Position numbers and translations under genes: made by a program. A DNA stretch of 64,000 bases from Prevotella sp. (GTDB taxonomy: Bacteria; Bacteroidota; Bacteroidia; Bacteroidales; Bacteroidaceae): contig JBJEHA010000013.1 in assembly GCA_051875605.1 (NCBI GenBank), forward strand, positions 3,648 through 67,647. The letters are read 5' to 3'. The notes beneath the pieces are model-generated. The model ran no database searches. It was not told the DNA's origin and saw only the letters and a program-made list of their open reading frames with translations. Shown in pieces: positions 4,738-60,032 of the stretch (positions are counted from its first letter, which is position 1; each line of letters begins with the position of its first letter).

Positions 4738-5279
4738 CAAATTGTCAGAATTTTGTATATTTTCGTGACACTTTGATTTTTTGGCCATTTATGGATAATC
4801 ATGCGAGAGTGGAATTTTGTGCACCAGCGGAATTTTTGGGTTCCGGAGAGCTGTTTTGTAAACCATTGATAATCAATGGAATAAGTTTTTACATCCGGAA
4901 AGTGTTAACAAAAATCACCCGATTTTAACCTAAAATCCGTTAAATTCGTGCACAAAACAGCCAGTTTGTGCAGTTTTCAGTCCCCTTTTTTCGCACTTTT
5001 GGCCGGAAAATTGCGGTTTTGGGGTAGAAAAACCTGAGTTTTTGCCCCGAAACAGTTAAGTTTTTCCTCAAAAACACTTAAGTGCCGGATCGAAAATAGT
5101 TAACTAATTTTCTGGAAACAGTTAAGTGTTTCCCCCCTAACACTTAACTAATTTTTCCGTTTTGTGCAAAAAACCGACAATTCACACTTATTAACATGAA
5201 AACCAACCTAAAACCACCTGTTTTTCAAGACCACAAAAAATCAAAGTGTCACGAAAAAGCCAGTTTTCGTGACACTTTG
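4738..5279 (+). repeat. 542-bp dispersed intergenic element, copy 1
   Basis: End modules at 4738-4775 and 5242-5279; TTAA boxes at 5056/5078/5100/5122/5144; colinear with five other copies. Confidence 0.95.
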
Positions 5280-14248: not shown

Positions 14249-14790
14249 CAAAGTGTCAGATTTTTAACACTTTTGCTTACATTTTGATTTTCCAGCCATT
14301 TCTGAAGATTCGGAGGGAACCTGGTTTTTGCGCGCCAACGATTTTTTTTGATTTTGGACGGCTGTTTTGTAAATCATTGATAGTCAATGAGATGATTTTT
14401 TAAAGACCGGGAGTGTTAAAGAAAATCGTCCGATTTTAACATAAAATCCGTTAAATTTATGCACAAAATGCGCGGTTTGTGCAGTTTTCAGCCCCCTTTT
14501 TTCGTACTTTTGGCTGGAAAATCGCGGTTTTGGGGCCGAAAAACCTGAGTTTTTGCCCCGAAACAGTTAAGTTTTTCCTCAAAAACACTTAAGTGCCGGA
14601 ACGAAAATAGTTAACTAATTTTCTGGAAACAGTTAAGTGTTCCCCCCCTAACACTTAACTGATTTTTCCGTTTTGTGCAAAAAACCGACATTTTGCACTT
14701 GTTAACATGAAAATCGGCTCAAAACCGCCTGTTTTTCAAGACCCCGAAAAATCAAAGTGTAAGCAAAAACGTTAAAATTCTGACACTTTG
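14249..14790 (+). repeat. 542-bp dispersed intergenic element, copy 2
   Basis: End modules at 14249-14286 and 14753-14790; first TTAA box at 14567 (offset 319, as in copy 1). Confidence 0.95.
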
Positions 14791-25593: not shown

Positions 25594-26134
25594 CAAAGTG
25601 TCAGGATTTTAACACTTTTGCTTACACTTTGATTTTTCGGCATTCGTAAAAGCGGCCAGTTTTGGGTCGATTTTCATGTTAATAAGTGTGAATCGTCAGT
25701 TTTTTGCACAAAACGGGAAAATCAGTTAAGTGTTAGGGGGGAAACACTTAACTGTTTCCAGAAAATTAGTTAACTATTTTCGATCCGGCACTTAAGTGTT
25801 TTTGAGGTAAAACTTAACTGTTTCGGGGCAAAAACTCAGGTTTTTCGGCCTCAAAACCGCGATTTTCCGGCCAAAAGTGCGGAAAATGGGGGCTGAAAAC
25901 TGCACAAACTGGCTTTTTTGTGCACGAATTTAACGGATTTTAGGTTAAAATTGTGCGGTTTTTGTTAACACTTCGCATCAGTAAAAAATATACCATTGAT
26001 TATCAATGGTTTACAAAACAGGCCTCCGAAACCTGGAATTTACGCTGGCGCAAAAAAATCCGAATTCGCCGGATTCTACAGAAATGGTCGAAAAATCAAA
26101 GTGTAAGCAAAAATGTTAAAAAACTGACATTGTG
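25594..26134 (-). repeat. 541-bp dispersed intergenic element, copy 3 (reverse orientation)
   Basis: End modules at 25594-25631 and 26097-26134; one 1-nt deletion relative to the other copies between offsets 142 and 165. Confidence 0.95.
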
Positions 26135-36624: not shown

Positions 36625-37166
36625 CAAATTGTCACATTTTCGTTCATTTCTGTGACACTTTGATTTTTCAGGATTATGAAAAAAAGGCGGTTTGAGGCTG
36701 ATTTTCATGTTAATAAGTGTGAATTGTCGGATTTTTGCACAAAACGGGAAAATTAGTTAAGTGTTAGGGGGGAAACACTTAACTGTTTCCGGAAAATTAG
36801 TTAACTGTTTTCGTTCCGGCACTTAAGTGTTTTTGAGGAAAAACTTAACTGTTTCGGGGCAAAAACTCAGGTTTTTCGGCCTCAAAACCGTGATTTTCCA
36901 GCCAAAAGTGTGGAAAAAGGGGGTTGAAAATTGCACAAATCGCGTGTTTTGTGCGTAAATTTAACGGATTTTAGGTTAAAATTGGACGGTTTTTATTAAC
37001 ACTTTCCGTCCATAAAAACTTATCTTATTGATTATCAACGGTTTTCAAAAAAGGTCTCTGAAACCGAGAAATTCCGCTGGCGTTCAAAAATACACTTCCG
37101 TCTGATTCTTCAGAAATGGCCGGAAAATCAAAGTGTAAGCAAAAGTGTTAAAAAAATGACACTTTG
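36625..37166 (-). repeat. 542-bp dispersed intergenic element, copy 4 (reverse orientation)
   Basis: End modules at 36625-36662 and 37129-37166; first TTAA box at offset 319. Confidence 0.95.
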
Positions 37167-46478: not shown

Positions 46479-47020
46479 CAAAATGTCAGAATTTTGACGT
46501 TTTTTGTGACACTTTGATTTTCGGGCCATTTATGAAGATTTGGGCGAGAACGGATTTTTATGCGCCAGCGGAAAATTCCGGTTTTGGAAGACTAATTTGT
46601 AAACCATTGATAATCAACGGGATAAGTTTTTACAATCACAAAGTGTTAACAAAAACCGCCCGATTTTAACCTAAAATCCGTTAAATTCGTGCACAAAACG
46701 CGCGATTTGTGCAGTTTTCAGCCCCCATTTTCCGCACTTTTGGCCGGAAAATCGCGGTTTTGAGGCCGAAAAACCTGAGTTTTTGCCCCAAAACAGTTAA
46801 GTTTTTCCTCAAAAACACTTAAGTGCCAAGACGAAAATAGTTAACTAATTTTTCGGAAACAGTTAAGTGTTTCCCCCCTAACACTTAACTGATTTTTCCG
46901 TTTTGTGCAAAAAACCGGCAATTCACACTTATTAACGTGAAAATCGGTCAAAAACAGCCCGTTTTTCAGCACTCAGAAAAATCAAAGTGTCAGCAAAACC
47001 GTTAAAAATTTGACACTTTG
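46479..47020 (+). repeat. 542-bp dispersed intergenic element, copy 5
   Basis: End modules at 46479-46516 and 46983-47020; first TTAA box at 46797 (offset 319). Confidence 0.95.
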
Positions 47021-47107: not shown

Positions 47108-47127
47108 CAGCGGCTTGCAAAATGCAA

Positions 47128-47245
47128 GCTAAAGGGGTGCCCGCTGTGGCGGGCTGAGATCAGACCCTCTGACCTGATCCGGGTAATGCCGGCGTAGGGA
47201 TTTGGCAAAACATAAAAAGTGCCCCTTTTTGTGTATTCTTTTTTT
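47128..47245 (+). ncRNA. TPP (thi-box) riboswitch with terminator-type expression platform
   Basis: P1 GCTAAA/TTTGGC (47128-47133/47201-47206); GGGGTGC...GCTGAGA...ACCTGATCCGGGTAATGCCGGCGTAGGGA core; hairpin ACATAAAAAG/CTTTTTGTGT (47210-47234) plus a T-rich tract. Confidence 0.92.
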
Positions 47246-59490: not shown

Positions 59491-60032
59491 CAAAATGTCA
59501 GATTTTCAGCCGATTTTGTGACACTTTGATTTTTCGCGGTCTTATAAAAAAGACTATTTTGGCCGGATTTTCATGTTAATAAGTGTAAATTACCGGTTTT
59601 TTGTACAAAATGGAAAAATCAGTTAAGTGTTAGGGGGGAAACACTTAACTGTTTCCAGAAAATTAGTTAACTATTTTTGTTCCGGCACTTAAGTGTTTTT
59701 GAGGCAAAACTTAACTGTTTCGGGGCAAAAACCTATGTTTTTCGGCCTCAAAACCGCGTTTTTCCGACCAAAAGTGCGGAAAAAGGGGGCTGAAAACTGC
59801 ACAAATCACGAGTTTTGTGCATGAATTTAACGGATTTTAGGTTAAAATCGGACGCTTTTTGTTAACACTTCACACCCATAAAAAACTACCCCATTGATTA
59901 TCAACGGTTTACAAAACAAGTCTCTAAAACCCAAAAAATACGCTGGCACGTAATAATCCGATCTCGCCCGACTCTTCAGAAATGGCCAGAAAATCAAAGT
60001 GTAAGCAATTGTGTTAAAAAACTGACACTTTG
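59491..60032 (-). repeat. 542-bp dispersed intergenic element, copy 6 (reverse orientation)
   Basis: End modules at 59491-59528 and 59995-60032; first TTAA box at offset 319. Confidence 0.95.

What the first reader, a model, noticed from the sequence alone, without database searches (positions are those of the whole stretch)
5053..5150. Five iteron-like TTAA boxes at an exact 22-bp pitch in the conserved core
Seen in sequence (copy 1): CAGTTAAGTT, CACTTAAGTG, TAGTTAACTA, CAGTTAAGTG and CACTTAACTA, with TTAA at 5056, 5078, 5100, 5122 and 5144. A degenerate CACTTATT lies two pitches further on (5188). Boxes 2 and 3 are perfect palindromes, and boxes 4 and 5 form an 11-bp inverted repeat around a C-run. 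This is the most conserved part of the element (102/110 identical between copies 1 and 5 by manual alignment). Established: plasmid iterons and partition (centromere) arrays use repeats at about two helical turns for cooperative binding on one face of the helix. Inference: an array for cooperative polymerisation of a dimeric DNA-binding protein.
Basis: partly seen in the sequence, partly recalled or inferred. Interest (0 to 1): 0.72.

Follow-up and report, generated by a model that had tools for sequence, protein, structure and literature searches.

The report
Phased TTAA-box array in interspersed element
The five TTAA boxes are real and form the almost unchanging centre of a 542-base non-coding element present about 110-130 times in one Bacteroidales genome; they most likely form a phased landing pad for a DNA-binding protein, not a plasmid origin or centromere.

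Summary
TTAA lies at 5056, 5078, 5100, 5122 and 5144, and the same five-box ladder occurs in all six window copies (0 expected by chance).

Genome-wide there are 109 such ladders. 87 of 88 fully assembled copies keep all five boxes in register. So do five diverged subfamilies and two other lineages.

The boxes are ten AACASTT half-sites arranged as five dyads. They sit in a 542-bp element that is not coding and lies between genes, and has 38-bp hairpin ends. It is absent from 400 other genomes of the order and from the plasmid, phage and viral collections.

The array is 96-99.8% conserved, against 74-92% elsewhere in the element. Indels are almost absent (20 indel cells against 4694 substitution cells).

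Between strains, the variable sites differ about 30 times more than the flanks, while the boxes stay fixed. Copies are never closer than 5.6 kb.

Best reading (about 0.5): a helically phased array for a sequence-specific, dimeric DNA-binding protein inside a mosaic interspersed element. No binding protein or mobilising enzyme was found.

The iteron or centromere analogy holds for geometry only, and membership fails. The hairpin (ssDNA/RNA) reading and the minisatellite-relic reading remain as rivals.

The parts
4738..5279 (+). Copy 1 of the 542-bp non-coding interspersed element that carries the array
   Evidence: Bounded by two 38-bp modules 504 bp apart. 84 of 88 internal copies are 541-543 bp long.
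5039..5182 (.). Near-invariant core (consensus 302-445): A/T-tract hairpin, five TTAA boxes and TTTTGTGCAAAAA
   Evidence: Per-site conservation over 84 copies. Private substitutions are 0.097 per site here against 0.40 elsewhere, p=4e-9.
5051..5064 (.). Box 1, AACAGTT|AAGTTTT
5073..5086 (.). Box 2, AACACTT|AAGTGCC (10-bp perfect palindrome CACTTAAGTG)
5095..5108 (.). Box 3, AATAGTT|AACTAAT (10-bp perfect palindrome TAGTTAACTA)
5117..5130 (.). Box 4, AACAGTT|AAGTGTT
   Evidence: Invariant in 84 copies.
5139..5152 (.). Box 5, AACACTT|AACTAAT. With box 4 it forms an inverted repeat around TTCCCCCCTA.
   Evidence: Its arms are also conserved in G137 and in RHMF01032218.
5184..5192 (.). Single half-site ACACTTATT, two pitches after box 5
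   Evidence: Conserved in the family. A full sixth box lies one pitch after box 5 in variant C45.
4738..4775 (.). Left 38-bp end module, CAAATTGTCA-N18-TGACACTTTG
   Evidence: 277 such modules in the genome. They carry the same AAGTGT/ACACTT hexamer as the boxes.
5242..5279 (.). Right 38-bp end module, hairpin type (stem CAAAGTGTCACGAAAA / TTTTCGTGACACTTTG). It looks like a terminator in both directions.
   Evidence: The upper stem covaries among modules and among species.
4863..4879 (.). CCATTGATAATCAATGG dyad. The TGATAATCA core is shared by all related families.
4949..4972 (.). TGCACAAA-N8-TTTGTGCA dyad with invariant arms and a free spacer. A third TTTGTGCA lies at 5161-5168.
14567..14658 (+). 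Box ladder of copy 2 (element 14249-14790)
25726..25817 (-). Box ladder of copy 3 (element 25594-26134)
36757..36848 (-). Box ladder of copy 4 (element 36625-37166)
46797..46888 (+). Box ladder of copy 5 (element 46479-47020)
59623..59714 (-). Box ladder of copy 6 (element 59491-60032)

Best explanation
The five boxes are ten copies of a 7-bp half-site (consensus AACASTT). They are arranged head-to-head as five 14-bp dyads whose centres lie exactly 22 bp (two helical turns) apart. They form the fixed centre of a 542-bp mosaic interspersed element that is non-coding and lies between genes, with about 110-130 copies (2.4% of a 2.83-Mb genome).

I read the array as a phased set of sites on which a sequence-specific DNA-binding protein binds as dimers along one face of the duplex. 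This would build a higher-order complex. That complex is embedded in A/T tracts phased at 10-11 bp, which predict bent DNA. It is bracketed by hairpin end modules that resemble terminators.

Shown: the geometry, its conservation, the lack of indels, the restriction to the element, and the avoidance of close neighbours.

Inferred: that a protein binds, that binding is cooperative, and that the complex is what selection preserves. Two roles would fit. One is a cis requirement of the element itself, for example an enhancer or immunity-type site that also keeps new copies away from old ones. The other is an architectural or insulating site that the host keeps. The array is not a plasmid iteron or centromere.
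For: (1) The register is exact in 87 of 88 copies and in 109 ladders genome-wide. It also holds in five diverged subfamilies whose other parts differ (C47, C52, C74, C90, C45). It holds in two other lineages with unrelated spacers: G137, offsets -23/0/+22/+66, and metagenome contig RHMF01032218, four boxes at 22 bp.
(2) All ten half-sites fit AACASTT. Boxes 2 and 3 are loop-less palindromes that cannot fold on their own.
(3) Conservation is site-specific. Positions inside spacers 2-3 and 3-4 vary while the boxes do not. Private substitutions are depleted four-fold, p=4e-9.
(4) There are 4694 substitution cells against 20 indel cells in 84 copies, and 84 of 88 copies are 541-543 bp long. This points to selection on spacing.
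(5) Changes in box arms in G137 are not compensated (C-C and G-G mismatches, and one arm with TTAA replaced). So sequence is kept, not pairing.
(6) The 10-mer CASTTAASTG occurs 315 times inside elements and 7 times outside, where chance gives about 10. The site is private to the element.
(7) At orthologous copies in other assemblies, flanks differ by 0.5%, family-variable sites by about 14% and array-invariant sites by 0.4-0.9%.
(8) None of 48 intervals between assembled copies is under 5 kb. The null expectation is 27%, and 0 of 3000 simulations were as extreme.
(9) A/T tracts are conserved (4.5% non-consensus against 18% at G/C sites) and phased at 10-11, 21-22, 32-33 and 43-44 bp.
Against: No binding protein was identified, and no HTH, Rep, Par or transposase gene is consistently linked to the element. 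Because each box is a dyad and neighbouring boxes are inverted, the same sequence can also fold as hairpins (ssDNA z=-4.7). The end modules, which share the AAGTGT/ACACTT hexamer, do behave as hairpins. Related families with the same ends carry different 21-22-bp arrays, which a minisatellite origin would also explain. Frequent exchange among copies means the conservation could reflect selection among element copies and not a host function. All data come from a 95-contig assembly and from metagenome contigs that tend to break in the invariant core.
Confidence: 0.5

Rival explanations
1. The array works as folded nucleic acid. Neighbouring half-boxes pair across the 8-nt spacers (AAGTGTT-N8-AACACTT is a 22-nt unit). 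This gives a row of hairpins in single-stranded DNA or RNA. The hairpins would be read by a hairpin-specific enzyme of the IS200/IS605 or RAYT type, or would act as stacked transcription terminators.
For: The box 4/5 stem of 12-14 bp is invariant, while its loop is free in G137. The same AAGTGT/ACACTT stem occurs in the end modules, whose upper stems covary (CACGAAAA/TTTTCGTG, CACCCTTC/GAAGGGTG, CACAAAAACA/TGTTTTTGTG). The ssDNA fold has z=-4.7. There are six terminator-like hairpins with T runs against 0.7 expected, four of them internal and all on the + strand. The downstream gene is co-oriented in 60 of 85 cases.
Against: Boxes 2 and 3 have no loop. The 2R-3L halves match at only 3 of 7 positions. 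Arm changes are not compensated. Orientation shows no bias against GC skew (16/20 against 21/25, p=1) or between neighbours. The three Y1-transposase loci of the genome carry other hairpins. Rfam gives only spurious hairpin hits. There is no canonical Bacteroidetes TAnnTTTG promoter in the consensus.
Confidence: 0.2
2. The ladder is a historical by-product. A 22-bp unit was duplicated in tandem inside a MITE, as in the minisatellite of the Porphyromonas gingivalis BrickBuilt MITE. It looks conserved only because copies are continually homogenised by gene conversion. It has no function of its own.
For: Related families carry different 21-22-bp tandem arrays. Variable segments are exchanged or renewed quickly between strains. 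A MITE with an internal minisatellite is documented in PMC4596501.
Against: The number of units does not vary: five in 87 of 88 copies. Variable positions sit within a few bases of invariant ones, which conversion tracts cannot produce. Spacers have diverged while boxes and register are kept in three lineages. Polymorphic sites show no linkage even at 10 bp or less, r2=0.07.
Confidence: 0.12
3. The boxes are crossover or accessory sites of a site-specific recombinase (res-, att- or hix-like). Exchanges between copies take place in the array.
For: These are dyad sites with a fixed central tetranucleotide. In another assembly the SpoU-side half of copy 2 is joined, within the core, to the half of the copy that lies at C76:20701 in this genome (97.6% identical). 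Replaced segments end at conserved blocks.
Against: The join can equally be an assembly chimera or ordinary homologous recombination in a 134-bp identical stretch. No recombinase gene is linked to the element. Recombination among 110 dispersed sites would be highly disruptive.
Confidence: 0.08
4. These are true plasmid-type iterons or a partition centromere, as a remnant of integrated replicons.
For: 22-bp pitch, an adjacent A/T-rich phased region and an IHF-consensus-like TATCAATGGTTTA near the TTGATAATCAA dyad. This resemblance rests on my own knowledge of oriV and sopC architecture.
Against: About 110 chromosomal copies. Dyads, not same-sense direct repeats. No rep or par genes beside any copy examined. 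No match in plasmids, phages or IMG/VR.
Confidence: 0.03

Closest known systems
REP/BIME mosaic elements of Proteobacteria (with REPIN-RAYT systems)
   Same: High-copy, intergenic mosaic of palindromic units and other motifs. The hairpin units resemble terminators. BIMEs bind host proteins (IHF, gyrase; from my own knowledge and the abstracts). REPINs persist for a long time.
   Different: This element is 542 bp long with a fixed length. It has a five-dyad phased array with no counterpart in BIMEs. No RAYT is flanked by its hairpins: the two RAYT-like genes here are flanked by other repeats. It is restricted to one species.
MITEs, e.g. the BrickBuilt MITE of Porphyromonas gingivalis (PMC4596501)
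   Same: Non-coding, intergenic, with inverted-repeat ends, found in Bacteroidales, and with an internal tandem array.
   Different: No target-site duplication is detectable. No autonomous partner was found. No young copies exist: the highest pairwise identity is 93.5%. The unit number is fixed, and the spacing between copies is over-dispersed.
Plasmid iterons and partition centromeres (for example the sopC arrays of F)
   Same: Repeated protein-site geometry at about two helical turns, dyad sites as in sopC or parS, and an A/T-rich neighbourhood.
   Different: Chromosomal and present about 110 times. No Rep or Par genes. Not direct repeats. Absent from plasmid and phage collections.
End and enhancer site arrays of Mu and Tn7 type transposons, with target immunity
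   Same: Multiple sites of about 22 bp that share a motif with the element termini. Copies avoid each other over kilobases, as expected from target immunity (from my own knowledge).
   Different: No 5-bp duplication. The sites are dyads in the interior, not oriented sites at both ends. The only Mu-like transposase found (contig C9) has unrelated end repeats, GATAATCTGCGG.

Membership tests
Plasmid iterons (Rep-binding origin repeats) | Same-sense direct repeats of 17-22 bp | tested here: not met
   The boxes are dyads of inverted half-sites, and neighbouring boxes are mutually inverted.
Plasmid iterons (Rep-binding origin repeats) | Located in a replicon origin next to a rep gene | tested here: not met
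   About 110 chromosomal intergenic copies lie beside housekeeping genes. No plasmid or phage match.
Partition centromere (parS, parC, sopC) | Array of sites for a centromere-binding protein encoded by an adjacent par operon | tested here: not met
   The geometry is compatible, but no par genes flank the copies examined, and the copy number is far above that of any known centromere.
MITE | Short, non-coding, multi-copy, with terminal inverted repeats | tested here: met
   542 bp, no conserved ORF, 88 internal copies plus about 40 at contig ends, and 38-bp inverted end modules.
MITE | Target-site duplication | tested here: not met
   Direct-repeat matches of the flanks do not exceed shuffled pairings, for example 13 against 9.1. 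Caveat: flanks could be mis-paired if contigs are chimeric in the core.
MITE | Autonomous element with the same ends and a transposase | tested here: not met
   No pair of modules encloses a gene. No repeat longer than about 860 bp is assembled. The transposases found have other ends.
REP/REPIN-RAYT | A single-copy Y1 transposase (RAYT) flanked by the same palindromes | tested here: not met
   PF01797 gives three loci. One is an IS605 with a CCCCTAAG hairpin. One is a RAYT flanked by TAACCGCGGCGCGGTTA. One is a RAYT-like domain flanked by GC-rich palindromes.
IS200/IS605-derived PATE | Hairpin ends, a fixed target motif at the left flank only, and orientation bias relative to replication | tested here: not met
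   Hairpin ends are present. But both flanks carry either GAAAAT or ATTTTR independently, and orientation shows no bias against GC skew.
Structured RNA family (Rfam) | Match to a covariance model, or covariation that supports a fold | tested here: not met
   No Rfam hit on the element at gathering score, and only spurious miRNA-hairpin hits at E<1. Internal dyads show no compensatory changes.
Phased protein-binding array (functional class, not a sequence family) | Binding of a protein and dependence on helical phasing | not testable with these tools
   Only indirect sequence evidence is available.

The most novel reading that the evidence does not exclude
The element is not a decaying parasite. 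It is a maintained chromosomal feature. About 110-130 nucleoprotein sites of fixed length and helical phase are kept at least 5-6 kb apart. They lie typically 8-20 kb apart, about the size of a supercoil domain. Their protein-binding core is frozen, while roughly a third of the surrounding positions turn over about 30 times faster than neighbouring DNA between strains. On this reading it is a bacterial insulator or loop-anchor system, or a chromosome-wide immunity grid against a cognate transposon. It would have its own dedicated binding protein and an active diversification or micro-conversion process.
Probability: 0.22. Interest if true: 0.88.

Novelty: new variant of a known kind. Interest (0 to 1): 0.72.

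Why it matters
Interspersed repeats in bacteria are usually treated as short-lived parasites or as simple hairpins. This one combines four features. It has an operator-like array with exact helical register. Its length is invariant. Nearby copies are excluded. And frozen sites are sharply separated from hypervariable ones at the same locus between near-identical strains. If a protein does assemble on the array, the organism has about 110 identical nucleoprotein stations spread along its chromosome. That would make chromosome domain organisation, transcriptional insulation and target immunity directly testable in Bacteroidales, a group with few known nucleoid-structuring systems. In practice, the invariant core explains why assemblies of this species break or mis-join at these sites.

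Tried and rejected
- Plasmid, phage and viral origin: no similarity.
- Known RNA family: none.
- Own promoter: no TAnnTTTG with an upstream TTTG in the consensus.
- IS200/IS605 or RAYT mobilisation: all three Y1 loci have other hairpins, and there is no strand bias.
- Mu/Tn552-like transposon on contig C9: unrelated end repeats.
- Target-site duplication: none above the shuffled control.
- Host operator outside the element: box 10-mers outside elements are at chance level.
- Candidate binders next to solo end motifs in G137 (an XRE HTH protein and a 140-aa protein): no homologue in this genome.
- Genes beside variant and solo loci: nothing recurrent.
- Subfamily phylogeny or blocky gene conversion as the source of variation: rejected because linkage is absent and sites are multi-allelic.
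- Donor copies for the strain-specific segments: none in this genome, best 87% and 93%.
- Literature search for the motif and for comparable Bacteroidales elements: nothing specific.

Full report
**1. The observation**

There are five boxes with TTAA at 5056, 5078, 5100, 5122 and 5144, and a half-box (ACACTTATT) two pitches further on. Boxes 2 and 3 are perfect 10-bp palindromes. Boxes 4 and 5 are inverted copies of each other around a C-run.

A search for five TTAA at 22-bp intervals finds exactly six matches in the window, one per copy of a repeated element. None was found in 100 shuffles.

**2. What carries the boxes**

The window holds six copies of a 542-bp element: 4738-5279, 14249-14790 and 46479-47020 on the + strand, and 25594-26134, 36625-37166 and 59491-60032 on the - strand. 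All lie between genes of ordinary function.

The whole genome is 2.83 Mb, 50% G+C, in 95 contigs. It has 88 fully assembled copies and about 80 fragments at contig ends, which amounts to roughly 110-130 elements or 2.4% of the DNA.

- Each end is a 38-bp module, CAAAGTGTCA-N18-TGACACTTTG. There are 277 such modules in the genome, and some stand alone.
- Many modules are long hairpins flanked by AAAAT and ATTTT, like bidirectional terminators. Their upper stems covary within the genome and in three other species of the genus.
- The interior has no conserved reading frame, no Rfam match and no canonical Bacteroidetes promoter.

**3. Conservation of the array**

In an alignment of 84 copies the array region (consensus 312-445) is 96-99.8% conserved per 20-nt window, against 74-92% for most of the rest. 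The longest invariant run, 34 nt, is box 4, loop and box 5.

- 87 of 88 copies keep all five boxes in register, and the genome has 109 complete ladders.
- Five diverged subfamilies (C47, C52, C74, C90, C45) keep the boxes at offsets of exactly -66, -44, -22, 0 and +22, while spacers and the remainder differ. C45 has a sixth box at +44.
- The box 4/5 pair with neighbouring boxes recurs in one other species out of 185,579. This is MAG CALUOR01, here G137. Its ClpB is only 59% identical, and it has at least 22 copies of an otherwise different element of about 480 bp.
- A metagenome contig, RHMF01032218, has four boxes at 22 bp.
- None of 400 other genomes of the order (236 genera) has three such boxes at this pitch. 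24 same-genus genomes lack the element altogether.

**4. Anatomy of the boxes**

The ten half-sites are AACAGTT, AAAACTT, AACACTT, GGCACTT, AATAGTT, ATTAGTT, AACAGTT, AACACTT, AACACTT and ATCAGTT. The consensus is AACASTT.

Half-sites abut head-to-head at TT|AA and are separated tail-to-tail by 8 bp, so 7+8+7 gives the 22-bp unit. The same hexamer (AAGTGT/ACACTT) forms the arms of the end modules and occurs at several other fixed places.

The 10-mer CASTTAASTG occurs 315 times inside elements and 7 times in the other 97.6% of the genome, about what chance predicts. So the site is private to the element and is not a host operator borrowed from elsewhere.

**5. Duplex sites or hairpins?**

The array can fold (ssDNA z=-4.7), and the end modules clearly behave as hairpins. 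For the boxes, though, the evidence favours recognition of sequence on duplex DNA.

- Boxes 2 and 3 have no loop.
- The halves between boxes 2 and 3 are not complementary.
- In the G137 copies, changes in one arm are never compensated in the other. There are C-C and G-G mismatches, and one copy has TTAA replaced in one arm only.
- Internal dyads of the main family also show one-sided changes only.
- Orientation is random with respect to GC skew and between neighbours. This argues against a strand-specific, single-strand mechanism.

**6. Evidence for constraint**

- Private substitutions are four times rarer in the array, p=4e-9.
- Across 84 copies there are 4694 substitution cells but only 20 indel cells. 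68 of 88 copies are exactly 542 bp long, despite many homopolymer runs.
- Outside the array, A/T tracts are conserved (4.5% non-consensus against 18% at G/C positions). They recur at 10-11, 21-22, 32-33 and 43-44 bp.

So helical register is preserved over the whole element.

**7. Unexpected dynamics**

No two copies are more than 93.5% identical. 171 sites are polymorphic at 8 of 84 copies or more. 81% of variable sites have three or four alleles. There is essentially no linkage even between sites 10 bp or less apart, r2=0.07.

I compared orthologous copies in other metagenome assemblies.

- Flanks are 99.5-100% identical.
- Family-variable sites differ at about 14%.
- Invariant sites differ at about 1%, and array-invariant sites at 0.4-0.9%.
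- At copy 4, three assemblies carry three different versions of a segment of about 200 bp. That segment lies between an unchanged core and an unchanged end module. No donor copy exists in this genome, with best matches of 87% and 93%.

The variable positions therefore turn over far faster than neighbouring DNA. The cause could be fine-scale exchange among copies or some targeted process. The boxes do not change.

This weakens a simple picture of ancient decay under host selection. But it strengthens the conclusion that the boxes are under strong site-specific selection, either at the level of the host or among element copies.

**8. Spacing**

Among 48 intervals between fully assembled neighbours none is under 5 kb. 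The minimum is 5.6 kb and the CV is 0.56. Random choice among intergenic gaps gives 27% under 5 kb and a CV of 0.90, and none of 3000 simulations was as extreme.

Direct and inverted neighbour pairs are equally frequent, so loss of close direct repeats by deletion does not explain this. The interval lengths are unaffected by possible chimeric joins inside elements.

The pattern fits either an immunity-like exclusion during spread or selection for spaced sites.

**9. How it moves is unresolved**

There is no target-site duplication above control. Outer flanks are GAAAAT or ATTTTR independently at each end. No gene is enclosed by two modules.

The transposases found have other ends: an IS605 on C32, two RAYT-like genes, and a Mu-like transposase with an AAA+ ATPase on C9.

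Related elements share the end hairpin and a TGATAATCA dyad but carry different 21-22-bp arrays. They occur in this genome (C11, C29) and in three other species of the genus. The array therefore looks like an exchangeable specificity module, not part of the end-recognition machinery.

**10. Comparison with known systems**

The geometry resembles iterons and sopC-type centromeres, but membership fails on orientation, context and copy number. The closest kinds are REP/BIME mosaics and MITEs. The element differs from both in several ways:

- its phased dyad array;
- its fixed length;
- the lack of a duplication and of a partner transposase;
- the exclusion of near neighbours;
- the split between frozen and hypervariable sites.

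I rate it a new variant of a known kind.

**11. Limits**

- There is a single 95-contig assembly, 95% complete.
- Contigs of this and other assemblies break in the invariant core or may be mis-joined there. One join of copy 2 to another copy's half was seen.
- No protein evidence of any kind is available.

Noticed in passing
whole genome G000 (window copies at 4738, 14249, 25594, 36625, 46479, 59491): Copies avoid each other. None of 48 intervals between assembled neighbours is under 5 kb, where 27% is expected, and the CV is 0.56 against 0.90. Orientation of neighbours is random.
   Followed up: yes
window 36929-37107 (left segment of copy 4) against L055:485-675 and L056:1-215: Three assemblies of the same locus have flanks about 99.5-100% identical (0-4 differences in 734-915 bp), and the two that reach them have an identical core and end module. 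They carry three different versions (about 19% apart) of this segment of about 200 bp. No donor copy exists in this genome. The right half of copy 2 shows the same behaviour, about 91% against L048.
   Followed up: partly
G000:C30:70051-73863: A RAYT-like Y1 transposase domain, flanked on both sides by GC-rich palindromic repeats, sits in frame inside a 1271-codon open frame of a type IIG-like DNA methyltransferase.
   Followed up: partly
G000, e.g. C60:19415-19640 and C90:73563-73810 (none in the window): A second repeat family is a GC-rich palindrome (CTGGGGGTGTGGGCGTCCCGCCCGCAC...) with about 90 copies. It lies within 350 bp of 37 of the 88 elements, mostly at their right end. It is probably the REPIN of the RAYT-like gene on C30.
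   Followed up: partly
G000:C11:65894-66709 and C29:52317-53100: Elements of about 800 bp have the same end modules but carry 3-4 repeats of 21 bp containing the dyad GTTCACG-G-CGTGAAC in place of the TTAA boxes.
   Followed up: partly
L002:1503-1900 (G003), L016:1340-1540 (G084), L017:1460-1590 (G131): Other species of the genus have low-copy elements with the same CAAAGTGTCAC...GTGACACTTTG hairpin and a TGATAATCA-like dyad. Their arrays at a 21-22-bp pitch are unrelated, for example GTAAAAGCTATC three times and GAAAGCATAGCTTTC.
   Followed up: partly
L019:2352-2893: In assembly ERZ27279456 the SpoU-side half of copy 2 is joined, inside the invariant core, to the half of the copy that lies at C76:20701 in this genome (97.6% identical), followed by different genes. 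This is either a real rearrangement or a chimeric contig.
   Followed up: partly
window 4863-5149, + strand: Four internal dyads (4863-4879, 4949-4972, 5016-5053, 5120-5149) are each followed by a T run on the + strand. The scan found six terminator-like sites against 0.7 expected. The downstream gene is co-oriented with the element in 60 of 85 cases.
   Followed up: partly
window 47123-47218 (+): A TPP riboswitch (Rfam RF00059, 75 bits) lies just downstream of copy 5 and upstream of a TonB-dependent receptor gene.
   Followed up: no
G000:C32:1040-2754 and C47:860-1307: C32 holds an IS605-type element with divergent tnpA and tnpB, cut off by the contig end. C47 holds a RAYT-like gene flanked by TAACCGCGGCGCGGTTA palindromes.
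   Followed up: partly
L064:41-125 (RHMF01032218.1): A metagenome contig of a third lineage carries four AACASTTAASTGTT-type boxes at an exact 22-bp pitch with unrelated spacers. The contig starts inside the element.
   Followed up: no
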